DNA of 44,309 nucleotides from a virus (Duplodnaviria; Heunggongvirae; Uroviricota; Caudoviricetes), in IMG/VR virus record IMGVR_UViG_2684622542_000005, one strand, 5' to 3'. How positions within the stretch are numbered: the stretch's first letter is position 1; every line of letters begins with the position of its first letter. Positions 2-24,598 of the stretch are shown here, one piece after another. Position numbers and translations under genes: made by a program. The notes below the pieces were generated by a model. The model was not told the origin of the DNA. It ran no database searches and saw only the letters and a list, made by a program, of their open reading frames with translations.

Positions 2-199
2 CTATTACCTTCTTCAGAGAGCCCCCAGCTACTTCCTGTGACTCTCGATGCAGCTGCCGAACAGCCAGAATCGCTCGCAGAGGACCCGAAAACCCTCAGT
101 ATCAGCTGTGAGGTAACGTTCCGGCACGGGACGCTCCGCTTCAATGGCAATGTCAGCGAAAAGCTCCTGACTCTGCTGATACAGGAACTGAAGCGATGA
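2..199 (+). CDS. IS66-family accessory protein (orf1/TnpA), 5' end outside window
   Basis: Open frame from the window edge ending ...LLTLLIQELKR*; its stop overlaps the ATG of the following tnpB (ATGA), the usual IS66 orf1-orf2 coupling. Confidence 0.5.
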   Translation, partial: LLPSSESPQLLPVTLDAAAEQPESLAEDPKTLSISCEVTFRHGTLRFNGNVSEKLLTLLIQELKR

Positions 200-519
200 T
201 CCCGTTACCTTCCGGGATCAAAATTTGGCTGGTTGCCGGTATCACCGATATGAGAAATGGCTTCAACGGCCTGGCTGCGAAAGTACAGACGGCGCTGAAA
301 GACGATCCCATGTCCGGCCATGTTTTCATTTTCCGGGGCCGCAGCGGCAGTCAGGTTAAACTGCTGTGGTCCACCAGTGACGGACTGTGCCTCCTGACCA
401 AACGGCTGGAGCGTGGGCGCTTCGCCTGGCCGTCAGCCCGTGATGGCAAAGTGTTCCTTACACAGGCGCAGCTGGCGATGCTGCTGGAAGGTATCGACTG
501 GCGACATATAACCAGGTGA
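196..519 (+). CDS. tnpB: IS66-family TnpB (orf2), C-terminus probably clipped by prophage insertion
   Basis: 107 aa MIPLPSGIKIWLVAGITDMRNGFNGL...FIFRGRSGSQVKLLW matches the conserved IS66 Orf2 pattern; the last residues (ITR*) run into the prophage left-end repeat. Confidence 0.85.
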   Translation: MIPLPSGIKIWLVAGITDMRNGFNGLAAKVQTALKDDPMSGHVFIFRGRSGSQVKLLWSTSDGLCLLTKRLERGRFAWPSARDGKVFLTQAQLAMLLEGIDWRHITR

Positions 520-752: not shown

Positions 753-1298
753 TTAACCCGCTTTTGGTTCTACCGCGTTAGATTTGCGACTTCTCTCAGT
801 TTCTTCCAAAATCTCTCTGACGCGTTCGTCAGACATACCTTCAAGCTGTAATGCAGCTATTCTTTTCCTTCCTTCTAAGCGGATTAGATCTTGATTTTCA
901 GGCTCTAACAACCGAGCTAAGTACTTGGCTCCATTCAGAACCAAATTTTTCGATAGCTGCTCTAAGTCTTTTTCATCAAGTGCGCTGATAATCGTCATAA
1001 TTATCTTCTTGCTTTCATCTTGATTTTCCTTGATCTCACACCGATTCACTTGTGATGCATCACTGAATCCACATAGCCACTCAACACTTACTCCTTCGAT
1101 AGACGCAATCTGAAGGGCGACACTTAAGGATGGCTCAGTGCCACGAGACAGATAATTGTTTAGTGTTGAAAATGAAAGCCCCCAATCTCTTGCTGCAGCT
1201 CTGACGCTGCGGGAGCCAATCAGCCTTTTCAGACGCTCAGCAATGCTTTCTTTTCTACCACCAGGAAAAGAAAGAGATGTTGTTGTTTGCTTGTTCAT
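753..1298 (-). CDS. Prophage repressor (Mu c-like position, HTH DNA-binding)
   Basis: 181 aa, leftward gene at the left end, divergent from the early operon; N-terminal helix-turn-helix (SVRAAARDWGLSFSTLNNYL), coiled-coil-like C-terminus. Confidence 0.7.
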   Translation of the reverse strand: MNKQTTTSLSFPGGRKESIAERLKRLIGSRSVRAAARDWGLSFSTLNNYLSRGTEPSLSVALQIASIEGVSVEWLCGFSDASQVNRCEIKENQDESKKIIMTIISALDEKDLEQLSKNLVLNGAKYLARLLEPENQDLIRLEGRKRIAALQLEGMSDERVREILEETERSRKSNAVEPKAG

Positions 1299-1578
1299 TT
1301 TCTTTTCTTCCTATCAATTTGANNNNNNNNNNNNNNNNNNNNNNNNNNNNNNNNNNNNNNNNNNNNNNNNNNNNNNNNNNNNNNNNNNNNNNNNNNNNNN
1401 NNNNNNNNNNNNNNNNNNNNNNNNNNNNNNNNNNNNNNNNNNNNNNNNNNNNNNNNNNNNNNNNNNNNNNNNNNNNNNNNNNNNNNNNNNNNNNNNNNNN
1501 NNNNNNNNNNNNNNNNNNNNNNNNNNNNNNNNNNNNNNNNNNNNNNNNNNNNNNNNNNNNNNNNNNNNNNNNNNNNNN

Positions 1579-1721: not shown

Positions 1722-3809
1722 ATGTTTGCTTCAGTTAAAGAACTGGTTGGATTACCGGGGATGCCGGGAACGGAGCAAGGCGTTCGCTATTCAATCAGGA
1801 AGTATGCAACCAGCGAAACCAGCAGACGCCGCAAGAAAGGCGCTAAAGGTTTTGAATACAGCATTGACTGTTTACCTGAAGTGACACAGCAGGCATTACG
1901 CGAACGTTATGCCCTGCAACTGATGACGCAAAAAGCCGATGAATCACCGGCTCCGGTGGTGACAAAGGCCAGACGCTCGTCTGCCGTGGTTGATGCGGTG
2001 GAGGCATATCGCGGATCACCACAACTGATGGTCGAACGCCTCAATGCCCTGACTGAAAACCAGCGCCAGGTGGCAGACGCACGCATTGCGATCGTCAGTG
2101 AGGTGCTGAAATTCACGCAACAACCCGGTTTCAGCTGCGCTAAAGCTATCCGGTTCCTCGTTAACAGCCTGGCACGATCACAACTGGACGAGCGCATTGT
2201 GGCAATGGTTGAGACGGCGAACGCCAAAAAGGGAAACAGCCGCGCGTTGAGTGAAATCACGCTGAAACGCTGGATTGCGGCCTTTAACAAGGCACAGAAC
2301 GCCGCTGAACGCCTGCTTTTACTGGCACCGGGTAAACGCCAGGAAATAAAAGCCGAAGATATTAACTGGCTGCCCGAATTTCTGGCGCAGTATCGCCAGT
2401 CAAACGGCCGACCAATGACCGAGGCTTACGAGGATTTTGTTGCTGAATGGCAGCACCGGCACGCTGATGAGCCTTATATGCTCGATATCATGCCCTCTTA
2501 TGACACCATTCGCCGCGCAATGAAGAAACTGCCGGAAGTGGTGAAACAAAAAGGCCGGGTAACTGGCAGTGAATACCGTCAGCTTGAGGGATTCACGCGC
2601 CGCGACTGGTCCAGAATGCCGGTGAATTATGTCTGGATTGGTGACGGTCACGGCATGAAGCTGAAATGCGCGCACCCGGTTCACGGGCGGCCATTCGCAC
2701 CGGAAGTGACCTTTGTTATCGACGGTGGCACGCGCTTTGTGGTGGGCTGGAGCCTTGACCTGGCTGAAAATGTTTTCGCCGTAGCCGGTGCCATACAGCA
2801 CGGTATTCGCCATCATGGCAAACCGTTTCTGTATTACTCGGATAATGGCTCCGGGGAAACCGCCGACGTCCTGGATAAGGAGATTGTGGGGATACTGCCA
2901 CGACTGGGGATTAATCACCCGACAGGGATTGCCGGTAATCCGCAGGGACGGGGCATTATCGAACGGCTTAACCGCACATTACCGATGCGCATAGCCCGTA
3001 AATACCGCACCTATTTCGGGAAAGGAGCAGATCGCGAGACGTTACGTAAAACCAACCGCGATTTACGCTCGGCATTCAGTGCCCTGCAACAGGGCAAACG
3101 GCTGAACGCCCGGCAGCAGTCAGCGATGCGTGATTTACCGTCCTGGTCTGAACTGATTGATGCCATTCGTGACGGTGTTGAGTGGTACAACAACCGGCCG
3201 CACGATGAATTACCCATGAAGCCGAACGGTAAACATTACAGCCCGGCGGAGTTCAGAAAAAAACGCCTGGCGGAAGAGGACACGGAAATTGAATGGCTGT
3301 CCGATGTTGAACTGCGGGATATGTTCCGGCCGATGGTGGAGCGCCCTGTAAGACGCTGTGAAATACGCTGGCTGAATAATATTTACTACGCGCCCGAGCT
3401 GCGTGACGAGCATGGCCGTAAGGTACTTATCAGCTATGACATTCATGATGCCGAACGAATTACCGTGCGCCGCCCGGATGGCAGCGTGATTTGCGAGGCG
3501 GTATGGGACGGCAATAAACGCGAAGCCTTCCCTGTCAGCGCGGAATACTACAAACAGCAGCAGCGCCTTAAAGGCATGCGTAAACGCGCAGAGGAAAAAA
3601 TCCGTGATGCCGAGGATGAGGTTGTCAACGTGCTGGAGCACAAGCCGCAGGAGCCCTGGCTGGAAAACATATACCGCCCTGTGGGTAATACGGTGACCGT
3701 TCAGCAACCGGTCGCTGACGATGAACCTGATGAAGAATACGAGCGTAATTTCCAGCGGGGATTGCAACTGCTCGAAGCGAAATTAAAAGAAAGTGATCCG
3801 CTGGCCTGA
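1722..3809 (+). CDS. Mu-type DDE transposase (MuA-like)
   Basis: 695 aa, follows ner, precedes an AAA+ ATPase; size and position match MuA. Confidence 0.9.
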   Translation: MFASVKELVGLPGMPGTEQGVRYSIRKYATSETSRRRKKGAKGFEYSIDCLPEVTQQALRERYALQLMTQKADESPAPVVTKARRSSAVVDAVEAYRGSPQLMVERLNALTENQRQVADARIAIVSEVLKFTQQPGFSCAKAIRFLVNSLARSQLDERIVAMVETANAKKGNSRALSEITLKRWIAAFNKAQNAAERLLLLAPGKRQEIKAEDINWLPEFLAQYRQSNGRPMTEAYEDFVAEWQHRHADEPYMLDIMPSYDTIRRAMKKLPEVVKQKGRVTGSEYRQLEGFTRRDWSRMPVNYVWIGDGHGMKLKCAHPVHGRPFAPEVTFVIDGGTRFVVGWSLDLAENVFAVAGAIQHGIRHHGKPFLYYSDNGSGETADVLDKEIVGILPRLGINHPTGIAGNPQGRGIIERLNRTLPMRIARKYRTYFGKGADRETLRKTNRDLRSAFSALQQGKRLNARQQSAMRDLPSWSELIDAIRDGVEWYNNRPHDELPMKPNGKHYSPAEFRKKRLAEEDTEIEWLSDVELRDMFRPMVERPVRRCEIRWLNNIYYAPELRDEHGRKVLISYDIHDAERITVRRPDGSVICEAVWDGNKREAFPVSAEYYKQQQRLKGMRKRAEEKIRDAEDEVVNVLEHKPQEPWLENIYRPVGNTVTVQQPVADDEPDEEYERNFQRGLQLLEAKLKESDPLA

Positions 3810-3891
3810 AATAAAAAAATAACCCGAGGGGTGACTCAGGTTATTTGAGGTTTCAGTCTCGGAGAATGCTGTCTCAAGCGAGGTGAATAAT

Positions 3892-4824
3892 ATGACCGAT
3901 ATTAACGATGTAATCAAGACCATTGATGAACTTATTGATGGCGGCGTACTGACGCAGTATGCCATCGCCAGAGAGGCGGGAATTTCCGACGGCACATTAT
4001 CGGCTTTCCGTAAGGGAAAATATAAAGGCGATAACGCTGCTGTGGCTGCTTCCCTGCGCTCCTGGTATGAGAACTGGAATAAACAAAGCGCACTGCCGGA
4101 ACCGCCGCAGTTTGTGGAAACTCAGACAGTCCAGGAGCTGCGCGCACTGTTTCAGGCGGTTCGCCTGATGGGCTGTATTAACGTTATTGTGGGCGTACCG
4201 GGTGTGGGTAAAACGGCCACTGCCCGTAATTACTGCCAGGAGCAACCAAACACCTGGATGATCACCCTGTCACCCGCGCACTCCAGCGTCACGGAGTGTC
4301 TGCTGGAGCTGGCCGATGCGCTGGGGATTGATTACACCCGCGCGAACAAAGGGGCATTATCCCGCGCCATCCGCCGTCGCCTGATGGGAACGCGTGGACT
4401 GGTGATTGTGGATGAGGCGGATCATCTTGGTATTGACGGTCTGGAGCAACTCCGGGCAATTCAGGACGCCACGGGGATCGGGATGGTGCTTATTGGTAAC
4501 CCGCGCGGATTGTTTAAAGGTGGACGCCGCGCCTTTGATGATTTATCGCGCCTGTTCAGCCGTCTTGCCCGTACAAAACAACTTCGCAAGGCCAAAAAGG
4601 CGGATGTGCTGGCCATTGCCATGGCGTGGGGGATCAGTGGTGAGGCCGAGCTGGCCGTCATGCAGGCTATCGCTGAAAAGCCGGGAGCGTTACGCGTTCT
4701 GACACATACGCTTAACCAGGCGTGGCTCACCGCCAGCGGTGAAGGCGCGGCGCTGACAGAAAAACATATTAATGCGGCCTTTAAAGAGGTTTATACCAAC
4801 CCTGAATTACTCTCACAGGTGTGA
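3892..4824 (+). CDS. Transposition ATPase / target DNA activator (MuB-like, AAA+)
   Basis: Walker A GVPGVGKTAT and Walker B VIVDEADHL; N-terminal HTH; GAGGTG ribosome-binding site 7 nt before ATG 3892 (ORF track begins at GTG 3883). Confidence 0.9.
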   Translation: MTDINDVIKTIDELIDGGVLTQYAIAREAGISDGTLSAFRKGKYKGDNAAVAASLRSWYENWNKQSALPEPPQFVETQTVQELRALFQAVRLMGCINVIVGVPGVGKTATARNYCQEQPNTWMITLSPAHSSVTECLLELADALGIDYTRANKGALSRAIRRRLMGTRGLVIVDEADHLGIDGLEQLRAIQDATGIGMVLIGNPRGLFKGGRRAFDDLSRLFSRLARTKQLRKAKKADVLAIAMAWGISGEAELAVMQAIAEKPGALRVLTHTLNQAWLTASGEGAALTEKHINAAFKEVYTNPELLSQV

Positions 4825-4826
4825 TT

Positions 4827-5048
4827 ATGGCGGTATTTAATATTCCTGATATTTACGGACGCTTTTACCTGGTTAATTTCGATAACGTGAAGGTGATTTC
4901 ACTGGCCGAAAATAAAGAATGTGGCGATTTACTTTTTGAATTTAATGACCGCACACGAATGGTGATATCTGCCGGACTTGATCGCGAAGGTGCGACAGAA
5001 GTTTACAGCGGAATATGCCGTTCTGTTGGTGCGAAACAAGTCAGCTAA
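4827..5048 (+). CDS. Hypothetical early-region protein
   Basis: ORF starting 3 nt after the MuB stop; ATG 4827 preferred over GTG 4821. Confidence 0.5.
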   Translation: MAVFNIPDIYGRFYLVNFDNVKVISLAENKECGDLLFEFNDRTRMVISAGLDREGATEVYSGICRSVGAKQVS

Positions 5049-5060
5049 ATGAGGTGTTAT

Positions 5061-5315
5061 ATGAATATGCAATCCTGCGGTAACAAAATGAATTTATTCG
5101 ACTCCCTGAACAGCGCGCGCCGTCTGACCGAACTTGCCGGTGCGGTACTGGAACGCAGTAAGCGCTATCCGCAACGTTTTGCACTGAAAACCACGCCGCC
5201 GGTAGGCAACGTGCAGGGAACCGGTGAAATTGAAATCACCATACAGACCAACGGCCTGCGCCGCCGTGTGAAGGCCACCCGCATCAGCGGCTGCACGGTT
5301 TACTGGGAGGTGTGA
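5061..5315 (+). CDS. Hypothetical early-region protein
   Basis: ORF with GAGGTG 4 nt before ATG 5061; start uncertain (5049/5061/5067). Confidence 0.45.
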   Translation: MNMQSCGNKMNLFDSLNSARRLTELAGAVLERSKRYPQRFALKTTPPVGNVQGTGEIEITIQTNGLRRRVKATRISGCTVYWEV

Positions 5316-5316
5316 G

Positions 5317-5598
5317 GTGAAAAAAAATCTCATTGCATGGGCGTGGTCGAGTGGTCTTATTGAGTTTGGTTACGTCCTGCCGGAAGGTGCATTGCCGATA
5401 GTTGCCGGAAAGCCTGCCACGGTACGGCATGTGATTGAGGTTATGGCGCGTCATGGACGTGATGAACAGGAGCAGTTACTGGTTCCGGGGATACCGGAAG
5501 CGGTGACGGAGGAAGAAGCCTTTAATGCCATGATTCGGTTCTGCCGTGAGGTTAGACGCCGGGTCAGTTATCCAAACAGAACGAGGACCAGAGGATGA
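5317..5598 (+). CDS. Hypothetical early-region protein
   Basis: 93-aa ORF with GTG start, tightly packed after the previous ORF. Confidence 0.5.
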   Translation: MKKNLIAWAWSSGLIEFGYVLPEGALPIVAGKPATVRHVIEVMARHGRDEQEQLLVPGIPEAVTEEEAFNAMIRFCREVRRRVSYPNRTRTRG

Positions 5599-5867
5599 GT
5601 AAAGTCGTACGCATTATTTTCGAATACAAGGAAGATGTTATCTGCAAAAACTCTGATGGCAGCACGCACAGAGGGGTAAGTCTGGATATACGTTCAACCG
5701 GAATAAAGAAGAAAGATAATGGACCCGCCATGATTTTTGGGGTGGTTATGCTGGCAGAAAGCAGAAACTTCGCAGAGTTTGTGGCAATGAAAGCCAGTGC
5801 ATTCATGAAAGACAGAGGCATGGCTTCCGGGGTTATTAACGGTAATGAATTTAATCAACAGGGGTAA
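5595..5867 (+). CDS. Hypothetical early-region protein (paralog A)
   Basis: N-terminus MSKVVRIIFEYKEDV; overlaps the previous stop by 4 nt. Confidence 0.55.
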   Translation: MSKVVRIIFEYKEDVICKNSDGSTHRGVSLDIRSTGIKKKDNGPAMIFGVVMLAESRNFAEFVAMKASAFMKDRGMASGVINGNEFNQQG

Positions 5868-5871
5868 TTCC

Positions 5872-6165
5872 ATGAGCAAAGTACGCGTTATTTTTGAATT
5901 TAATCATGTTTCGCATGACGAAAAGTTGGCAGGCAATGACTGTGTTGAAGTGCATGAAAAGATTGGAGTGGATGTGAAAACAGAACGTGATACGGATAAC
6001 AGGCCGACGTCACTCTGTGACGTTTATGCAAGTATTCTCCAGTATCACAGTCCTGCAATTATTCAGTTTCTCTCAGCGGAATTTCAGGCATCTGCACAGT
6101 CTTTTGGAGCGGATGCCATCATTAAACGCCACCGCGTGCATAAAGCATCAGGCACACTGCAATAA
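5872..6165 (+). CDS. Hypothetical early-region protein (paralog B)
   Basis: N-terminus MSKVRVIFEFNHV echoes the preceding ORF, suggesting tandem duplication. Confidence 0.55.
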   Translation: MSKVRVIFEFNHVSHDEKLAGNDCVEVHEKIGVDVKTERDTDNRPTSLCDVYASILQYHSPAIIQFLSAEFQASAQSFGADAIIKRHRVHKASGTLQ

Positions 6166-6176
6166 GGAAAAACAAA

Positions 6177-6707
6177 ATGGCTAAACGCGTTACAAAATTA
6201 AAGGCCGCAGCCGAGGCGGCACCGCAGACCCGGGAAGAAGTCAGCCGTGATATCCGCACCCTGGGAGATATTCAGCGAGAGGCGCTGCGCCTGGAAACGG
6301 CGATGAATGACGAAGTGGCAGAAATCACCGCCCGTTATACGCCGCAGATTGAAAATCTTAAAAAGCAAATCAAAGTGCTTTTTAAAGGGATTCAGGACTG
6401 GTGCAAAACCAACCGTGATGAGCTGACGAACGGCGGCAAAACCAAAACAGCCAATCTGACCACCGGAACGGTGTCATGGCGGCTGGGAACGCCATCATGC
6501 AGCGTCAGCCGTGATGTGGAAGGTGTGATTGAAATGCTGCGCCGTATGGGGCTTGAGCGTTTCATCCGCACGAAAGAGGAAGTGAACAAGGAAGCCGTCC
6601 TGGCGGAGCCGGATGCTGTGAAAGGCATTGCCGGTATCAAGGTGAATAAAGGCGCTGAAAGTTTTTATGTCGAGCCTTTTGAACAGGACGCCGGACTGAA
6701 TAAATAA
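6177..6707 (+). CDS. gam: Host-nuclease inhibitor Gam (Mu Gam-like)
   Basis: 176 aa, size and early-region position as Mu Gam; charged coiled-coil N-terminus. Confidence 0.8.
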   Translation: MAKRVTKLKAAAEAAPQTREEVSRDIRTLGDIQREALRLETAMNDEVAEITARYTPQIENLKKQIKVLFKGIQDWCKTNRDELTNGGKTKTANLTTGTVSWRLGTPSCSVSRDVEGVIEMLRRMGLERFIRTKEEVNKEAVLAEPDAVKGIAGIKVNKGAESFYVEPFEQDAGLNK

Positions 6708-6852
6708 CACCGCATTAATCAATTAAATATCACTTCATTTTAATTATGGCGCTCGCGTCAGGGGACTGCTTGCGCCTGAAAACAGAAAATAAGGGTTAAG
6801 AAATATGAAATACGTTTATATCGTCATTAATAATGTGGTGGGGAAATAAATC

Positions 6853-7386
6853 ATGATTGATGCAAAAGTGCTTGAAGGGGTTAAAAACTGGCTGTGTATT
6901 TATGGCCGCCTGACCTGCGGTGTACTGGCTGAAAAAATGAATATGCCGCCATCCTCCATGGTTTATTTTCTGCGTGATGCGGTTGATGCAGGCGTGCTGA
7001 CGGAATGTAACGGTTTTTATGATATTCCGCGTCCCCGCCCGGTGCAGCCGGTTCGTCGCAAATGCAGCCAGGAATCTGCGGCTGATGATGTTCAGTGGTG
7101 CGGCTTCAGAAAATCCCTGCCATGGATTGAGGGGCATGATATTCCGTCGATGGCGTGGGAATTTGCTCAGGGCGTTCTGACCTGTGAAACCGTTTATGTG
7201 GTGGCTGAAGTTGATGAGCAGGCCATGAAAGAAGGCGTGCCCCAGTTTGTGATGGCGTATATCGACATACGCCTGGGCGTCATTATCTGCGGTTTAAGCG
7301 GCTGGAATATCACTGAACATGTTCTGCGCTACCTGATTGTTGACCGGACAGCAGCGCCTGCCGGGATATCTGCGGAGGTGGCGTAA
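6853..7386 (+). CDS. Hypothetical protein, possible winged-helix N-terminus
   Basis: 177-aa ORF with AT-rich upstream region; no function assignable. Confidence 0.55.
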   Translation: MIDAKVLEGVKNWLCIYGRLTCGVLAEKMNMPPSSMVYFLRDAVDAGVLTECNGFYDIPRPRPVQPVRRKCSQESAADDVQWCGFRKSLPWIEGHDIPSMAWEFAQGVLTCETVYVVAEVDEQAMKEGVPQFVMAYIDIRLGVIICGLSGWNITEHVLRYLIVDRTAAPAGISAEVA

Positions 7387-7901
7387 TGTTCTTTAAAACA
7401 TCAAACCCTTCCGCGCTGGCTGCGTGGCAAAAATACCAGCAGGACTGCCAGAAAGTTAAGGATGAGGCAAAACGCCTTGAGGCCGTGCTGAATGTTGCGT
7501 GCCGGTCGGTATTTGTATCCGGTATCAGTGGATTTTACTTTAAGGGACTGCGTTTTACGGAGGACAAATATCCTTTTCATCGCGACTTATGGCGAAAACC
7601 GACTGCGTCGAATGGCTGGAGCTGCACACCGCGCACATCACGTATCCCTAAAACCCTGCGTGTTGCCTCTGATGAACTGAACAGTCTGTGGCGTGAATAT
7701 TCGCCCGTCACGTATGCCAGAACCGATGCGCTGTTGTTCTGGTTGGGTATTGATTTCTCGGCAATCCTGTTTGGCCCTGTGAAGTGGTTCTGCGTTGACG
7801 ATGTGATTTACCTTCAGTGCGGCGTAAAACCCGCAAAACAGAAAATGACCGAAATACTGTCTGATGAGTTTTATGCTGCTGAAAAGCGAGTCAGGGGGTG
7901 A
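7386..7901 (+). CDS. Hypothetical protein
   Basis: 171-aa ORF whose start overlaps the previous stop. Confidence 0.55.
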   Translation: MFFKTSNPSALAAWQKYQQDCQKVKDEAKRLEAVLNVACRSVFVSGISGFYFKGLRFTEDKYPFHRDLWRKPTASNGWSCTPRTSRIPKTLRVASDELNSLWREYSPVTYARTDALLFWLGIDFSAILFGPVKWFCVDDVIYLQCGVKPAKQKMTEILSDEFYAAEKRVRG

Positions 7902-7904
7902 TGC

Positions 7905-8456
7905 ATGATGAAATTACAACCCATGGGACTAAAAGGTCGCGCCCCCGCTCATGTCCGTCCGTGGACACCTGAAGAAGATGCGCTGCTGATTGCGCTTTAT
8001 TCATCCACCCCGGTTAAGGATATTGCTGCCAGAATAAAAAGAACTGTCTGGGCTGTATATAACCGGACTGGTGTATTGCGCAGTTCATACCCGGAGTTAC
8101 TGAAATATAAACACCCAAGATTTACACCTGATGAAGATAAGTTTATTCGAAAAAATGCCAGAACAATGACCTGCCAGCAAATGGGAGAATATCTCGGACG
8201 TAATAAAGATTCTGTCAGATGTCGGGCAGGAATGATTGGTGCTGGATTAACAAAGTGCGGAGAGTTACGCCCCGGCACGCGCATATCTGATGATGATGTA
8301 CGTCTTATACGTGAGCTGCGTGATTCCGATTACCCACGCCGTCTGTCATTCCGGGAAATTGGCGAAAAGTTTGGAATATCTGAACATTCTGCTCACGCAG
8401 TTTATTACCGTCGCCGGACTGCCGAGGACGCTGTATTACGGGAGTTAACGCCATGA
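7905..8456 (+). CDS. Hypothetical DNA-binding protein with tandem Myb/SANT-like repeats
   Basis: Repeated W/FTP(E/D)ED motifs (RPWTPEEDALL, RFTPDEDKFI) plus a C-terminal HTH-like segment. Confidence 0.55.
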   Translation: MMKLQPMGLKGRAPAHVRPWTPEEDALLIALYSSTPVKDIAARIKRTVWAVYNRTGVLRSSYPELLKYKHPRFTPDEDKFIRKNARTMTCQQMGEYLGRNKDSVRCRAGMIGAGLTKCGELRPGTRISDDDVRLIRELRDSDYPRRLSFREIGEKFGISEHSAHAVYYRRRTAEDAVLRELTP

Positions 8457-8785
8457 TAACGACCTTATTTGTTGAATCAGATGAACCTCTTGTGTGTGCC
8501 GCCGGAATGCCGCTCTGTGGCGGAACGCTGACCGGCGTTTATTTCGGGGATTTGCGCGGTTATCCCTGGCATTCACTGGATGACGCATTTCCGCCTGATA
8601 TGGAGGCTGTCGTGCTGATTGTTCAGTATGGTGACCAACAGGAACTGCGCATCGGCCATATGGGGTATGAAGGCTTTTTTATTGATGAAGAAACCGGAGC
8701 CTGCCTTGAAGATGAGGACGGACAGGTGACGCACTGGTGCCATCTTTCGGCCTTGCCGGAATTACAGGGGATACATAATGGATGA
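8453..8785 (+). CDS. Hypothetical protein
   Basis: 110-aa ORF overlapping the previous stop. Confidence 0.5.
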   Translation: MITTLFVESDEPLVCAAGMPLCGGTLTGVYFGDLRGYPWHSLDDAFPPDMEAVVLIVQYGDQQELRIGHMGYEGFFIDEETGACLEDEDGQVTHWCHLSALPELQGIHNG

Positions 8786-8921
8786 GCAAATTGTTGAATG
8801 TCCCACCTGTGGAAATGAGGACCCGGAGTATCTGAAAGAGTGCCCACATTGTGGTGAGATAAAATGTAACCACTGCGATATGGGCGACGACACTGCATGT
8901 ATAAATTGTGAGGATGAATAA
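8778..8921 (+). CDS. Small Cys-rich zinc-ribbon-like protein (47 aa)
   Basis: MDEQIVECPTCGNEDPEYLKECPHCGEIKCNHCDMGDDTACINCEDE; four CxxC pairs; absent from the ORF track, which omits ORFs under 60 aa. Confidence 0.45.
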   Translation: MDEQIVECPTCGNEDPEYLKECPHCGEIKCNHCDMGDDTACINCEDE

Positions 8922-8922
8922 T

Positions 8923-9210
8923 ATGGAAAAAGAAATCAAATTTGCGCCTAAATCTATCGACGAAGAACTGGCTAAAATCGGCATGCTTGAACGTATGCGG
9001 GACATTATCGAATATGCGATAAAAGAAAATCTTGCAGCCAGAGAAGCCCTTTTGATAATGGAGCGGGAGATTAACCTGATTAAGGATGCTGTATCTCTGG
9101 ATAATAAAATAGCCCGCGAGGAATACGTTCGCCGTAGGCTCGGTGTTGATGGTTCAGCAATTCTTACATCTGAACATTATGCAAAAATTTTTAATCTTTT
9201 TCAGCGGTAA
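8923..9210 (+). CDS. Hypothetical protein
   Basis: ORF starting MEKEIKF (ATG 8923); ORF track start 8908 is an upstream extension. Confidence 0.5.
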   Translation: MEKEIKFAPKSIDEELAKIGMLERMRDIIEYAIKENLAAREALLIMEREINLIKDAVSLDNKIAREEYVRRRLGVDGSAILTSEHYAKIFNLFQR

Positions 9211-9430
9211 TCCCCATACAGGCCCGGAGATTGTCGAAATGCCAGTCGGTATTAATATATGAGCCATCCTGGATATCTTCTGCATTTTCCGGGGTAGAGT
9301 TTTTTTGAGCGAGATTGATAATATGTATTGCCTCCTCACGGGAAATCAGCCCCTTATCGAACAGGGTTACCATAAGATTTCCAGCCATTGTGAATGCGGC
9401 AACATCAAGTGCATTTTTTATATCTGACAT
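9191..9430 (-). CDS. Hypothetical protein on the opposite strand within the early region
   Basis: 79-aa ORF exactly filling the gap between two plus-strand genes; globular-looking composition. Confidence 0.4.
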   Translation of the reverse strand: MSDIKNALDVAAFTMAGNLMVTLFDKGLISREEAIHIINLAQKNSTPENAEDIQDGSYINTDWHFDNLRACMGITAEKD

Positions 9431-9500
9431 AGATTTTTCCTTTTATGTTAATTGACATGGCGGTGCGGTAACACCGCCCATTTTTTATGGAGCCACGATA

Positions 9501-10013
9501 ATGAATCGCGCTTCCCTGATTACCTTAATACATGTCGCAAAACGCGATCTACAGCTTGACCATGATACCTATACATCCGCGCTGCTGGCAGCCACCGGCA
9601 AATCCAGTTGCCGTGATATGTCACCCGGTGAGTTATCCCGCGTGCTGGATGTTTTCAAAAAACGCGGTTTTAAAGTGCGTCAGAAGCCGGTTAACCGGGC
9701 CTTAAAACCGGGTACGGTGACCGCCAAAATTCGCGCCATCTGGAAAGTGATGCACCGGCAGGGATTTATCTCTGATGGCGGGGAAACGGCCCTTAACCGC
9801 TGGGTGAAATCGCAGACGGCCGCGCAGAACGACGGCGAAGGTGTGGCTAACTGGCAGTGGCTGGAGCAACAACCCGCGCTGGCCTCTGATGTGCTGGAGC
9901 GTCTCAAACGCTGGCACCGCCGCAAAATGCTGGCAGCCCTGGATATGTCGGAACGTGCAGTGATGAGTTATGAGCGTGTTTGCAGGCTGTATGAAAAATC
10001 ATTCCCCCGTTAA
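9501..10013 (+). CDS. gemA: GemA-like protein (Mu gp16 family)
   Basis: N-terminus MNRASLITLIHVAKRDLQLDHDTYTSALLAATGKSS..MSPGELSRVLDVFKKRGF follows the gp16/GemA pattern; sits just before the Mor/C activator. Confidence 0.7.
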   Translation: MNRASLITLIHVAKRDLQLDHDTYTSALLAATGKSSCRDMSPGELSRVLDVFKKRGFKVRQKPVNRALKPGTVTAKIRAIWKVMHRQGFISDGGETALNRWVKSQTAAQNDGEGVANWQWLEQQPALASDVLERLKRWHRRKMLAALDMSERAVMSYERVCRLYEKSFPR

Positions 10014-10017
10014 CCCC

Positions 10018-10048
10018 AAATCCCGCCACAGCGCGGGATTTTTATTTT
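10018..10048 (+). terminator. Putative intrinsic terminator after gemA
   Basis: Stem AAATCCCGC / GCGGGATTT with 5-nt loop followed by TTTATTTTAA. Confidence 0.5.
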
Positions 10049-10083: not shown

Positions 10084-10506
10084 ATGGCTGAAACACAGAT
10101 GAGCATGTTTGGTGACAGCGAACAGCTGCACGCGCTGATTGACCGTCTGGATGATATTCCTGATGATGAGCTGAAAAAGAACTGGCCCGGCACGCTGCGG
10201 GACCTGGTTGATGTGATCAGTGCTGAACTGCACCGTCAGGGGATTGAACCTGCTCAGGCGGGAATGCTTGCCCGTAAGGTTGCAGCCGCACAGGCCGGGT
10301 ACATGGGCGGGCGTGGTTATTATCTCCCGGTCGGTGAATCCCTTTTCACCGAACTGCGCAATAATGAAATTTTTTCCCGCTGGAGCCAGGGCGAAAAAAT
10401 TGAAACCCTGCGCCGCCACTACCAGATGTCAGAGACGCAGATTTACTCCGTTATCCGCAACCAGCGTCGCCTGCATCAGGAACGCACGCAGCCACGGCTT
10501 TTCTGA
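10084..10506 (+). CDS. Mor/C-family transcriptional activator
   Basis: 140 aa, between gemA and the lysis gene; glycine-rich segment followed by a C-terminal HTH-like region, as in Mor/C. Confidence 0.7.
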   Translation: MAETQMSMFGDSEQLHALIDRLDDIPDDELKKNWPGTLRDLVDVISAELHRQGIEPAQAGMLARKVAAAQAGYMGGRGYYLPVGESLFTELRNNEIFSRWSQGEKIETLRRHYQMSETQIYSVIRNQRRLHQERTQPRLF

Positions 10507-11394: not shown

Positions 11395-11654
11395 NNNNNN
11401 NNNNNNNNNNNNNNNNNNNNNNNNNNNNNNNNNNNNNNNNNNNNNNNNNNNNNNNNNNNNNNNNNNNNNNNNNNNNNNNNNNNNNNNNNNNNNNNNNNNN
11501 NNNNNNNNNNNNNNNNNNNNNNNNNNNNNNNNNNNNNNNNNNNNNNNNNNNNNNNNNNNNNNNNNNNNNNNNNNNNNNNNNNNNNNNNNNNNNNNNNNNN
11601 NNNNNNNNNNNNNNNNNNNNNNNNNNNNNNNNNNNNNNNNNNNNNNNNNNNNNN

Positions 11655-24326: not shown

Positions 24327-24598
24327 NNNNNNNNNNNNNNNNNNNNNNNNNNNNNNNNNNNNNNNNNNNNNNNNNNNNNNNNNNNNNNNNNNNNNNNNNN
24401 NNNNNNNNNNNNNNNNNNNNNNNNNNNNNNNNNNNNNNNNNNNNNNNNNNNNNNNNNNNNNNNNNNNNNNNNNNNNNNNNNNNNNNNNNNNNNNNNNNNN
24501 NNNNNNNNNNNNNNNNNNNNNNNNNNNNNNNNNNNNNNNNNNNNNNNNNNNNNNNNNNNNNNNNNNNNNNNNNNNNNNNNNNNNNNNNNNNNNNNNNN

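What the first reader, a model, noticed from the sequence alone, without database searches (positions are those of the whole stretch)
4827..9430. Semi-essential early region packed with small genes of unknown function
About 13 ORFs of 47-183 aa lie between MuB and GemA, with only Gam recognisable. They include a triple Myb/SANT-like HTH protein (7905-8456) and a winged-helix-like protein (6853-7386). In Mu-like phages this region holds host-takeover and anti-nuclease functions, so these are candidates for new anti-defence or host-modulating proteins.
Basis: inference. Interest (0 to 1): 0.5.

Follow-up and report, generated by a model that had tools for sequence, protein, structure and literature searches.

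The report
Accessory early operon of Mu-like prophage
This stretch is the "semi-essential" early gene block of a Mu-like prophage of E. coli: nine of its 13 small genes have counterparts in phage Mu, so it is an ordinary region whose genes are still mostly of unknown function.

Summary
Window 4821-9430 carries 13 tightly packed ORFs of 47-183 aa between MuB and GemA. Twelve are on the + strand and one (9191-9430) is on the - strand.

- **More than Gam is recognisable.** Nine of the 13 ORFs have counterparts in phage Mu: Kil, Gam, gp11, gp12, gp13, gp14, a gp9-like HTH protein, a distant gp15, and possibly gp7. All 13 fall into existing PHROG families.
- **Same block elsewhere.** It occurs in 232 of 5426 complete E. 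coli genomes.
- **The 7905-8456 protein** has three HTH repeats. It is a Mu gp9-like two-repeat unit plus one extra Myb-like repeat.
- **The 6853-7386 protein** is Mu gp11. A low-confidence model gives a winged-helix N-terminal domain.
- **The "host nuclease inhibitor" name** on the 5317-5598 family is an annotation artefact from a frameshifted phage D3112 record.
- **Variation among relatives.** Related prophages show three gene-exchange hot spots and a mosaic pattern. This fits accessory genes, but nothing here shows anti-defence activity.
- **An unannotated gene.** The 47-aa zinc-ribbon ORF at 8778-8921 is missing from RefSeq. It is the most conserved protein shared with Mu (88% identity).

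Verdict: a new member of a known kind, of modest interest.

The parts
4827..5048 (+). w01, 73 aa (alternative GTG start at 4821). Lineage-specific small protein inserted between B and kil relative to Mu.
   Evidence: phrog_3375, E 1.3e-46. No Pfam or NCBIfam hit. Among phage records it is found only in two Stx phages that carry an inserted copy of this Mu-like element. It shows a weak local similarity to Mor residues 30-69: Smith-Waterman z 7.2, but hhalign probability only 1.4%.
5061..5315 (+). w02, Kil-like protein, 84 aa (alternative start at 5049).
   Evidence: phrog_2679 'Kil protein for bacterial septation inhibition', E 7.8e-46. 33% identical to Mu Kil over the C-terminal 39 aa. Mu Kil cross-hits phrog_2679 at E 9.3e-5. 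The identical protein WP_001057199.1 is named 'Kil protein family' by NCBI. Good Shine-Dalgarno sequence before 5061.
5317..5598 (+). w03, 93 aa (GTG start). Member of a widespread family of small phage early proteins that is wrongly labelled 'host nuclease inhibitor'.
   Evidence: phrog_1518, E 3.8e-43. The family has 546 cluster representatives (50% identity) at E<=1e-3. No Pfam or PDB relative. The label traces to a 1-nt frameshift in the D3112 record. Third-position bias against a relative: 6 of 7 differences.
5595..5867 (+). w04, 90 aa. Fast-diverging small protein and tandem paralogue of w05.
   Evidence: phrog_4107, E 1.7e-54. w04 against w05: hhalign E 7.4e-5, probability 62%, and Smith-Waterman z 6.0 with 0 of 2000 shuffles reaching it. 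80-87% aa identity in relatives whose neighbouring genes are 98-100% identical.
5872..6165 (+). w05, 97 aa (alternative start at 5845). Paralogue of w04, possibly related to Mu gp7.
   Evidence: phrog_2230, E 2.5e-38. Mu gp7 hits phrog_2230 over its full length, but only at E 0.009. The pairwise comparison with gp7 is not significant. Only 57% aa identity to the L003 orthologue.
6177..6707 (+). Gam, 176 aa. Ku-like protein that binds double-strand DNA ends.
   Evidence: PF07352, E 5.5e-42, 143.7 bits against a cut-off of 28.3. 57% identical to Mu Gam over the full length.
6708..6852 (.). Intergenic gap of 145 nt. This is gene-insertion hot spot 1.
   Evidence: In relatives a phrog_2260/DUF5420 gene of 180-192 aa sits here. 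It is a clean indel: window 6780-6843 is replaced by about 585 nt, and the flanks are 91-96% identical. No Rfam match.
6853..7386 (+). Mu gp11 homologue, 177 aa. Winged-helix-like N-terminal domain plus the Gp11_C domain.
7386..7901 (+). Mu gp12 homologue, 171 aa. Its start overlaps the gp11 stop by 1 nt.
7905..8456 (+). w09, 183 aa. DNA-binding-type protein with three HTH repeats: a Mu gp9-like two-repeat unit plus an extra N-terminal Myb-like repeat.
   Evidence: phrog_323, E 5.3e-53, the same family as Mu gp9. Repeat 2 against gp9 repeat 1 gives z 8.5. Repeat 3 against gp9 repeat 2 gives z 5.9. Repeat 1 against repeat 2 gives z 3.1. Pfam Myb, HTH_AsnC and HTH_10 hits are all below their cut-offs. 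RefSeq names it 'SANT/Myb-like DNA-binding domain-containing protein'. Only 72% aa identity in L003.
8453..8785 (+). w10, 110 aa. No Mu counterpart. Gene-exchange hot spots 2 and 3 lie on either side of it.
   Evidence: phrog_6925, E 2.1e-51. A weak DUF551 hit, E 0.062, below the cut-off. No PDB hit. L003 has two extra small genes upstream of it.
8778..8921 (+). w11, 47 aa. Zinc-ribbon protein with eight cysteines, homologous to the C-terminal 41 aa of Mu gp13. RefSeq does not annotate it.
   Evidence: 88% identical to Mu gp13 residues 20-60. phrog_5584, E 3.1e-26. Against Mu there are 15 synonymous and 5 non-synonymous codon changes, and 17 of 22 differences fall at third positions. It is absent from the RefSeq feature table. 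Shine-Dalgarno-like sequence upstream.
8923..9210 (+). w12, Mu gp14 homologue, 95 aa (alternative GTG start at 8908).
   Evidence: 49% identical to Mu gp14. phrog_6075, E 6.3e-44.
9191..9430 (-). w13, 79 aa, on the opposite strand. It converges on w12 and overlaps it by 20 nt. Distant homologue of Mu gp15, which is also on the minus strand at the same position.
   Evidence: phrog_32893, E 1.3e-45. Mu gp15 hits phrog_32893 at E 5.9e-4. Smith-Waterman z 4.9, with 2 of 2000 shuffles reaching it. BLASTP alone finds nothing. AAGGA sequence 7 nt before the ATG. Annotated by RefSeq.
9459..9478 (+). GC-rich hairpin followed by a T run, between w13 and gemA. Terminator-like boundary of the block.
   Evidence: 7-bp stem with 6 G-C pairs, followed by CATTTTTT. 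A second such hairpin follows gemA at 10018-10041. The overall number of terminator-like sites does not exceed the shuffled expectation, so this is a lead and not a demonstrated terminator.

Best explanation
Window 4821-9430 is the semi-essential (accessory) part of the early operon of a Mu-like transposable prophage of E. coli. It is homologous in layout, and in most genes, to Mu genes kil to gp15.

By analogy with Mu, it is inferred to be read rightward from the early promoter together with ner, A and B, as one densely packed and probably translationally coupled message.

The backbone shared with Mu is:
- Kil, which kills the host or blocks division.
- Gam, a Ku-like protein that caps linear DNA ends and keeps RecBCD off them.
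- The gp11 (winged-helix-like) and gp12 pair.
- A gp9-type multi-HTH DNA-binding protein.
- A gp13 zinc ribbon.
- gp14.
- An antisense gp15-like gene.

Lineage-specific small genes (w01, w03, the w04/w05 pair and w10) are slotted into this backbone. Three sites exchange cassettes between related prophages.

Shown here: gene content, homology, conservation and mosaicism. Inferred: the transcription unit and every function other than membership of the Gam and Kil families. The products most likely act early in lytic growth on host DNA metabolism, cell division and phage gene regulation.
For: - **Flanking genes.** MuA and MuB lie upstream, and GemA and a Mor-family gene downstream.
- **Gene-by-gene identity to Mu.** Gam 57%, gp11 68%, gp12 55%, gp13 88%, gp14 49%, Kil 33% over its C-terminal part, gp9 unit 27%.
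- **PHROG cross-hits.** These link Mu gp15 to w13, Mu Kil to w02, and Mu gp9 to w09.
- **Order and strand.** The genes shared with Mu keep the same order and strand, apart from the gp9-like gene, which lies after gp12 instead of before gam. The antisense last gene is kept too.
- **DNA similarity.** The region is about 68% identical to Mu, D108 and SfMu across gam to gp14.
- **Coupling.** Overlapping or abutting junctions, each with a Shine-Dalgarno sequence.
- **Purifying selection.** Seen in codon-position patterns.
- **Distribution.** Related blocks occur in 232 of 5426 complete E. coli genomes. They carry cassette indels at the Gam|gp11, w09|w10 and w10|gemA junctions, and identity along the block is uneven.
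Against: - There are no expression data, so the promoter, the operon structure and the terminators are inferred.
- The promoter and terminator scan finds no more sites than shuffled sequence does.
- Four genes (w01, w03, w04, w10) have no Mu counterpart, and w05 has only a marginal one.
- The gp9-like gene sits after gp12 here, not before gam as in Mu.
- This phage has a CI/HTH_3-type repressor unrelated to Mu c, and only one Mor/C-family activator. Its regulation may therefore differ from Mu.
- The gp11 model is of low confidence (pLDDT 56).
Confidence: 0.85

Rival explanations
1. The uncharacterised small genes are mainly counter-defence factors, that is, inhibitors of restriction, CRISPR, RecBCD-linked or abortive-infection systems. 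The exchange hot spots would then be anti-defence islands.
For: - The genes are small, early, fast-diverging and exchanged as cassettes between conserved anchors. This is typical of phage accessory and anti-defence loci.
- Gam-family proteins interact with defence systems. A Gam homologue was reported to inhibit SIR2+HerA and DUF4297+HerA and to trigger retron Ec86 (bioRxiv 10.1101/2024.04.14.589459).
- JBD30 Gam and GemA license Gabija targeting (PMC12407980).
Against: - No ORF other than Gam is homologous to any protein with a shown anti-defence role.
- There are no Pfam, NCBIfam, PDB or PADLOC matches that point that way.
- The one suggestive name, 'host nuclease inhibitor' for w03, is an annotation artefact.
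- gp11, gp12, gp13 and gp14 are conserved between this phage and Mu. gp13 is under strong purifying selection. That looks more like a fixed phage function than an arms-race gene.
- No dedicated anti-defence HMM library was available to me.
Confidence: 0.3
2. The conserved genes (gp11, gp12, the gp9-like HTH protein, gp13, gp14) serve the phage's own programme. They would tune transposition-replication, immunity and the early-to-late switch, which are the old Mu genetic functions arm, cim and lig/gem. They would not attack the host.
For: - Two of them are DNA-binding-type proteins: a winged-helix-like domain in gp11 and three HTH repeats in w09.
- They are conserved in Mu, D108, SfMu and Yersinia Mu-like phages.
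- The gp11 and gp12 genes overlap by one base and co-occur.
- The current Mu record equates Kil with cim, 'control of immunity'.
Against: - No binding sites, targets or phenotypes are known for gp9, gp11, gp12, gp13 or gp14.
- The gp11 and gp12 families are confined to enterobacterial Mu-like phages, so they are not general parts of the transposition machinery.
- gp12 has no recognisable fold.
Confidence: 0.35
3. Some of the ORFs are not genes. The 47-aa ORF (8778-8921), which RefSeq leaves out, and the minus-strand ORF (9191-9430) could be chance reading frames. One Mu record replaces minus-strand gp15 with a plus-strand ORF.
For: - RefSeq omits 8778-8921.
- AF083977 annotates a plus-strand Mu_54 where NC_000929 has minus-strand gp15.
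- Against L003, w13 shows 11 non-synonymous and 5 synonymous codon changes.
- BLASTP finds no similarity between w13 and gp15.
Against: - 8778-8921 is 88% identical in protein to Mu gp13, while its DNA is 82% identical and 17 of 22 differences fall at third positions. It has a Shine-Dalgarno sequence and eight cysteines spaced as CxxC pairs.
- w13 matches phrog_32893 at E 1.3e-45.
- Mu gp15 cross-hits that family at E 5.9e-4, and the two align at z 4.9, although their DNA is not detectably similar.
- The alternative plus-strand ORFs (40-46 aa, TTG starts) show no third-position bias.
Confidence: 0.1

Closest known systems
Semi-essential early region of Escherichia phage Mu (Mup05-Mup15: kil, gp6-gp9, gam, gp11-gp15; NC_000929 / AF083977)
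   Same: - Same position between B and gemA.
- Same orientation, including an antisense last gene.
- Shared genes: kil, gam, gp11, gp12, gp13, gp14, a gp9-type HTH unit and a distant gp15.
- Functions are largely unknown in Mu as well (PMC3820752).
   Different: - Only about 68% nt identity, and only over gam to gp14.
- Mu gp6 and gp8 are absent.
- w01, w03, w04 and w10 have no Mu counterpart.
- The gp9-like gene is longer (three repeats against two) and lies after gp12 instead of before gam.
- An extra gene (w01) separates B from kil.
- The phage has a CI-type repressor and a single Mor/C-type activator.
The same prophage lineage in E. coli genomes (e.g. NZ_CM128582.1, NZ_AP042574.1, NZ_CP044315.1, NZ_OZ547136.1) and inserted in Stx phages LC727895 / LC727881
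   Same: - 100% identity over the whole block in NZ_CM128582.1.
- Related blocks in 232 of 5426 complete genomes.
- Same gene order.
   Different: - Relatives carry an extra DUF5420/phrog_2260 gene between gam and gp11.
- Some carry two extra small genes before w10.
- Some carry alternative cassettes in place of gp13-gp14-gp15.
- w04, w05, w09 and the Mor-family gene are far more diverged than their neighbours.
Early regions of Pseudomonas Casadabanvirus phages (D3112, JBD24, JBD30, DMS3)
   Same: - Transposable phages with a Gam that is 54% identical to the window's Gam.
- They carry a w03-like gene of 93 aa that is 43-50% identical.
- They have a GemA homologue.
   Different: - There the w03-like gene directly follows gam, 1 nt after its stop. 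Here it lies two genes upstream of gam.
- No gp11, gp12, gp13, gp14 or Kil homologues were detected in the D3112 stretch examined.

Membership tests
Mu-type semi-essential early region | Lies between the transposition genes A and B and gemA/mor, on the same strand as they are. | tested here: met
   MuA 1722-3809 and MuB 3883-4824 (PF09077, E 7.8e-25). GemA 9501-10013 (PF06252, E 1.8e-28). Mor family 10084-10506 (PF08765).
Mu-type semi-essential early region | Contains homologues of the Mu genes kil, gam and gp11-gp15 in the same order. | tested here: met
   BLASTP identities: Kil 33% (partial), Gam 57%, gp11 68%, gp12 55%, gp13 88%, gp14 49%. gp15 is linked only by a PHROG cross-hit at E 5.9e-4 and an alignment at z 4.9. 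gp6 and gp8 are absent, and the gp9-like gene is displaced.
Mu-type semi-essential early region | Dispensable for plaque formation and transcribed from the early promoter Pe. | not testable with these tools
   There are no expression or deletion data. The consensus scans give no excess of sites over shuffled sequence.
Phage_Mu_Gam (PF07352), Ku-like end-binding protein | Full-length match above the Pfam gathering score. | tested here: met
   6177-6707: 143.7 bits against a cut-off of 28.3, profile positions 1-149 of 149. 57% identical to Mu Gam. DNA-end binding itself was not tested.
Kil (Mu-type host-killing / septation-inhibition protein) | Sequence membership of the Kil family, and a position just downstream of B. 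| tested here: met
   phrog_2679, E 7.8e-46. Mu Kil cross-hits at 9.3e-5. NCBI names the identical protein 'Kil protein family'. A 53%-related prophage has PF26843 Kil_protein at the same position. One gene (w01) intervenes after B. The killing phenotype was not tested.
Myb/SANT-like DNA-binding domain (PF00249 / PF13921), for 7905-8456 | A match above the Pfam gathering score, and three tandem repeats of that type. | tested here: inconclusive
   Myb_DNA-binding scores 19.7 bits against a cut-off of 24.4. Myb_DNA-bind_6 scores 16.5 against 22.9. Both cover repeat 1 only. Repeats 1 and 2 share the W/F-T-P-E/D-E-D motif, z 3.1. Repeat 3 matches HTH_AsnC and HTH_10 below their cut-offs, and a homeodomain at E 0.036. 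RefSeq uses the SANT/Myb-like name.
Winged-helix DNA-binding fold, for 6853-7386 (Mu gp11) | Three-helix bundle plus a beta wing, superposable on known winged-helix domains. | tested here: inconclusive
'Host nuclease inhibitor' (the name carried by phrog_1518 and NCBI for the 5317-5598 family) | Homology to a protein shown or reasonably inferred to inhibit a host nuclease (Mu Gam). | tested here: not met
   w03 has no similarity to Gam. The name comes from the D3112 'gam' CDS of 266 aa. That CDS is two genes fused by a 1-nt deletion relative to JBD24. In JBD24, Gam (172 aa) stops at TGA, and the 93-aa gene starts 1 nt later.
Known anti-defence proteins (anti-restriction, anti-CRISPR and others) | Sequence or fold homology to an experimentally shown inhibitor. 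| not testable with these tools
   No anti-defence HMM library (dbAPIS or AntiDefenseFinder) was available. Pfam, NCBIfam, PHROGs, PDB and PADLOC gave nothing of this kind apart from Gam.

The most novel reading that the evidence does not exclude
At least one of the following is a new kind of host-takeover or counter-defence factor with no characterised relative:
- The lineage-specific or cassette-borne small proteins: w01, the widespread w03 family, the w04/w05 paralogue pair, w10.
- The very strongly conserved 8-Cys gp13 zinc ribbon.
- The antisense gp15-like gene, which could be a lysogeny-expressed moron.

The three exchange sites (Gam|gp11, w09|w10, w10|gemA) would then be accessory-gene hot spots that can be mined across Mu-like prophages.
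Probability: 0.3. Interest if true: 0.55.

Novelty: new member of a known kind. Interest (0 to 1): 0.3.

Why it matters
Mu is a classic model phage, yet its semi-essential early genes are still mostly uncharacterised.

This prophage lineage is common in E. coli (about 4% of complete genomes). It gives a natural comparison set that separates a conserved backbone from exchangeable cassettes.
- **Backbone:** kil, gam, gp11, gp12, gp13, gp14, gp15.
- **Exchangeable genes:** the lineage-specific small genes and the cassettes at the three hot spots.

This tells an experimenter which genes to test for core accessory functions and which to test for host- or defence-specific roles.

Two practical corrections follow. 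The 'host nuclease inhibitor' name of a family with more than 500 cluster representatives should be dropped. A conserved 47-aa zinc-ribbon gene is missing from RefSeq annotation.

None of this changes current understanding, so the value is incremental.

Tried and rejected
1. **Rosetta-stone idea.** I first read w03 as a stand-alone version of a C-terminal domain of Pseudomonas phage Gam. I rejected this. JBD24 has two separate genes, and the D3112 'fusion' is a 1-nt frameshift. Neighbourhoods of distant w03 homologues are mixed. Some lie in Mu-like early operons with Gam, and others lie in non-Mu phages with no Gam within 4 kb.
2. **w01 as a truncated Mor-like dimerisation domain.** Smith-Waterman z is 7.2 and pairwise E is 1e-5. 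However, hhalign probability is 1.4% and there is no Pfam Mor hit. I kept it only as a weak lead.
3. **w04/w05 as Mu gp7 homologues.** The only support is a PHROG cross-hit at E 0.009. Pairwise and hhalign comparisons are not significant.
4. **Solved-structure relatives.** Sequence searches found none for gp11, gp12, w09, w03 (single sequence and 59-sequence profile) or w10.
6. **Family and motif scans.** PADLOC gave no match, NCBIfam gave nothing significant, only three chance-level hits at E 0.02-0.09 far below their cut-offs, and Rfam gave no significant match.
7. **Promoter and terminator scan.** No excess of sites over shuffled sequence.
8. **Literature.** I found no functional study of Mu gp6-gp9 or gp11-gp15 in the library.
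9. **Fusion partners of longer w03-like proteins.** No Pfam domains.

Full report
**What is there.** The window is a Mu-like prophage of E. coli.
- Upstream of the finding lie a MuA-type transposase (1722-3809) and MuB (3883-4824; Phage-MuB_C, E 7.8e-25).
- Downstream lie GemA (9501-10013; PF06252, E 1.8e-28) and a Mor-family activator (10084-10506).
One of them (9191-9430) is on the minus strand.
- Junctions are overlaps of 1-8 nt or gaps of 1-12 nt, except for a 145-nt gap after gam.
- Every start has a Shine-Dalgarno-like run upstream.
- All 13 products match existing PHROG families at E 1e-26 to 1e-105.
- The block is 100% identical to E. coli 600029 (NZ_CM128582.1). Related blocks occur in 232 of 5426 complete E. 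coli genomes, 142 of them with at least 80% coverage.
- RefSeq annotates 12 of the 13 ORFs there, mostly as hypothetical proteins.

**Comparison with Mu.** The DNA is only about 68% identical to Mu, D108, SfMu and Yersinia Mu-like phages, and only from gam to gp14. At protein level the backbone is clearly Mu's.

| Window ORF | Mu counterpart | Identity |
|---|---|---|
| 6177-6707 | Gam | 57% (PF07352, 143.7 bits) |
| 6853-7386 | gp11 | 68% (PF25754 Gp11_C, E 5.7e-41) |
| 7386-7901 | gp12 | 55% |
| 8778-8921 | gp13, C-terminal 41 aa | 88% |
| 8923-9210 | gp14 | 49% |
| 5061-5315 | Kil | 33% over the C-terminal 39 aa |

- The Kil-like ORF belongs to phrog_2679 'Kil' (E 7.8e-46). Mu Kil cross-hits that family, and NCBI now names the identical protein 'Kil protein family'.
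- The minus-strand ORF occupies the position and strand of Mu gp15. BLASTP sees nothing. However, Mu gp15 hits the w13 family phrog_32893 at E 5.9e-4, and the two align at z 4.9, with 2 of 2000 shuffles reaching that score.
- So 'only Gam recognisable' understates what can be assigned. The assigned Mu genes gp9 and gp11-gp15 are themselves uncharacterised. The literature still calls the SE genes 'largely unknown' (PMC3820752).

7905-8456 has three HTH-type repeats (alignment).
- Repeat 2 matches Mu gp9 repeat 1 (z 8.5).
- Repeat 3 matches gp9 repeat 2 (z 5.9).
- Repeat 1 resembles repeat 2 more weakly (z 3.1).
- The protein is therefore a gp9-type two-repeat unit with an extra N-terminal Myb-like repeat. 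Both proteins fall in phrog_323.
- Pfam Myb hits cover repeat 1 only and are below the cut-off (19.7 against 24.4 bits).
- Repeat 3 looks like AsnC, HTH_10 or homeodomain HTHs, also below threshold.
- 'Triple Myb/SANT' is thus roughly right on architecture and loose on family.

6853-7386 is Mu gp11.
- An AlphaFold2 model from 26 homologues is of low confidence: mean pLDDT 56, N-terminal part 50-60, C-terminal domain 70-85.
- This supports 'winged-helix-like', with that caveat.
- The gp11 family has 222 clusters among 5.8 billion proteins, and all named ones are E. coli or Salmonella.

gp12 was also examined.
- Its start overlaps the gp11 stop by one base.
- Its family (PF26885) has 46 clusters.
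- The model has pLDDT 68.6 and pTM 0.60.
- In BFVD it matches only uncharacterised viral proteins.

**Genes without a Mu counterpart.**
- **w01 (4827-5048).** It is confined to this lineage. A local similarity to Mor residues 30-69 is significant pairwise (z 7.2) but not by profile comparison.
- **w04 and w05.** These are tandem paralogues: hhalign E 7.4e-5 and z 6.0. They diverge fast, at 80-87% and 57-100% aa identity in relatives whose neighbouring genes are 98-100% identical.
- **w10.** It has only a sub-threshold DUF551 hit.
- **w03 (5317-5598).** It belongs to a large family, with 546 cluster representatives (50% identity) at E<=1e-3, mostly stand-alone proteins of 80-110 aa. The family has no Pfam or PDB relative.

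**The w03 name is an artefact.** PHROGs and NCBI call the w03 family 'host nuclease inhibitor'. I traced the name to the phage D3112 record.
- Its 266-aa 'gam' CDS is Gam-like in residues 1-161 and w03-like in residues 176-248.
- That CDS is not a real fusion. In JBD24, Gam (172 aa) ends at TGA, and the 93-aa w03-like gene starts one base later.
- D3112 lacks one base about 50 nt before that stop.
- The canonical Gam C-terminus is present in D3112 in another frame.
- The name is therefore an artefact and says nothing about function.
- Distant w03 homologues sit in early small-gene clusters of both Mu-like and non-Mu temperate phages, with or without Gam nearby.

**Comparison across related prophages.** Three sites exchange genes.
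1. **The Gam|gp11 gap.** In relatives it holds a 180-192-aa phrog_2260/DUF5420 gene. It is a clean 585-nt indel with conserved flanks.
2. **The w09|w10 junction.** One relative has two extra small genes there.
3. **The stretch between w10 and gemA.** The gp13-gp14-antisense gp15 cassette (this window, L003, Mu) is replaced by four forward genes in one relative. In another it is replaced by two forward genes plus an antisense DUF2513 gene. All of these are of unknown function.

Identity along the block is uneven, as expected for recombinational mosaics.
- No ORF apart from Gam is related to a protein with a shown role against host defences.
- PADLOC and Rfam gave no significant match, and NCBIfam gave only chance-level hits below its cut-offs.
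- Published work does connect SE-region proteins with defence. A Gam homologue inhibits SIR2+HerA and triggers retron Ec86. JBD30 Gam and GemA license Gabija.

**An overlooked gene.** The 47-aa ORF 8778-8921 is not annotated by RefSeq.
- It has eight cysteines in four CxxC pairs.
- It is the most conserved protein shared with Mu, at 88% aa identity. For comparison, B is 48% and Gam is 58%.
- Against Mu it has 15 synonymous and 5 non-synonymous codon changes, and 17 of 22 differences fall at third positions.
- It is a real gene under strong constraint.

**Most likely mechanism.** By homology of layout to Mu, the block is the accessory part of the early operon.
- It is inferred to be expressed rightward with A and B after induction.
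- Kil acts on host viability or division.
- Gam caps DNA ends against RecBCD.
- Two DNA-binding-type proteins (gp11, and the three-HTH protein) and several small proteins act on as yet unknown targets.
- A GC-rich hairpin with a T run at 9459-9478 precedes gemA, and another follows it at 10018-10041. In Mu a 'semi-early' promoter is annotated before gemA. The block may therefore end at a partial terminator. This is inferred only, because the scan as a whole shows no excess of sites over shuffles.

**Verdict.** The finding is real and correctly placed, but it is an ordinary instance of a known kind of region. Interest is modest at 0.3. The most novel reading that is still open is that one or more of the small genes is a new host-takeover or counter-defence factor. 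I put that at about 0.3.

Noticed in passing
L006 (phage D3112, AY394005) 2976-3776; L016 (JBD24) 675-1476: The D3112 'gam' CDS (266 aa) is two genes fused by a 1-nt deletion relative to JBD24. This is the source of the 'host nuclease inhibitor' name now carried by phrog_1518, JBD24 gp12, BcepMigl gp54 and the E. coli proteins of the w03 family.
   Followed up: yes
window 8778-8921 (+): This 47-aa zinc-ribbon ORF with eight cysteines is missing from the RefSeq annotation of the identical prophage. It is nevertheless the most conserved early protein shared with Mu, at 88% aa identity with mostly synonymous changes.
   Followed up: yes
window 10084-10506 (+): The window has only one Mor/C-family activator. 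It is closer to Mu C (40%) than to Mu Mor (28%), and it sits directly before the lysozyme gene. Mu has Mor, three small genes and then C. This suggests a one-step rather than a two-step early-to-late switch.
   Followed up: partly
window 753-1298 (-): The repressor is a CI/HTH_3-type protein (phrog_3037). It has no detectable similarity to Mu repressor c. The immunity module is therefore not Mu's, although the transposition and SE genes are.
   Followed up: partly
window 9459-9478 and 10018-10041 (+): Two strong terminator-like hairpins with T runs bracket gemA. The first lies in the 70-nt spacer between the divergent starts of the minus-strand ORF and gemA. Their role is untested.
   Followed up: no
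window 196-519 (+): An IS66 Orf2 (TnpB_IS66, E 1.2e-37) lies just left of the prophage repressor end. In strain 600029 the identical early block is instead flanked by a truncated sgrR and queC. This copy therefore appears to sit at a different insertion site.
   Followed up: partly
window 1323-1578, 11395-11654, 24327-24598, 35358-35625: There are four masked runs of 256-272 N. The first removes most of the ner-like gene. None touches the finding.
   Followed up: yes
window 4827-5048 (+) against Mu Mor residues 30-69: w01 shows 38% identity over 39 aa to the N-terminal part of Mor (pairwise E 1e-5, z 7.2). Profile comparison does not support it, with hhalign probability 1.4%. If real, it would be a Mor fragment lacking the HTH.
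   Followed up: partly
L002 / L007 (phage Mu) 7896-8162: The two public Mu records disagree here. NC_000929 annotates minus-strand gp15 (88 aa). AF083977 annotates a plus-strand 55-aa ORF, Mu_54. The distant similarity between Mu gp15 and the window's minus-strand ORF favours the minus-strand reading.
   Followed up: partly
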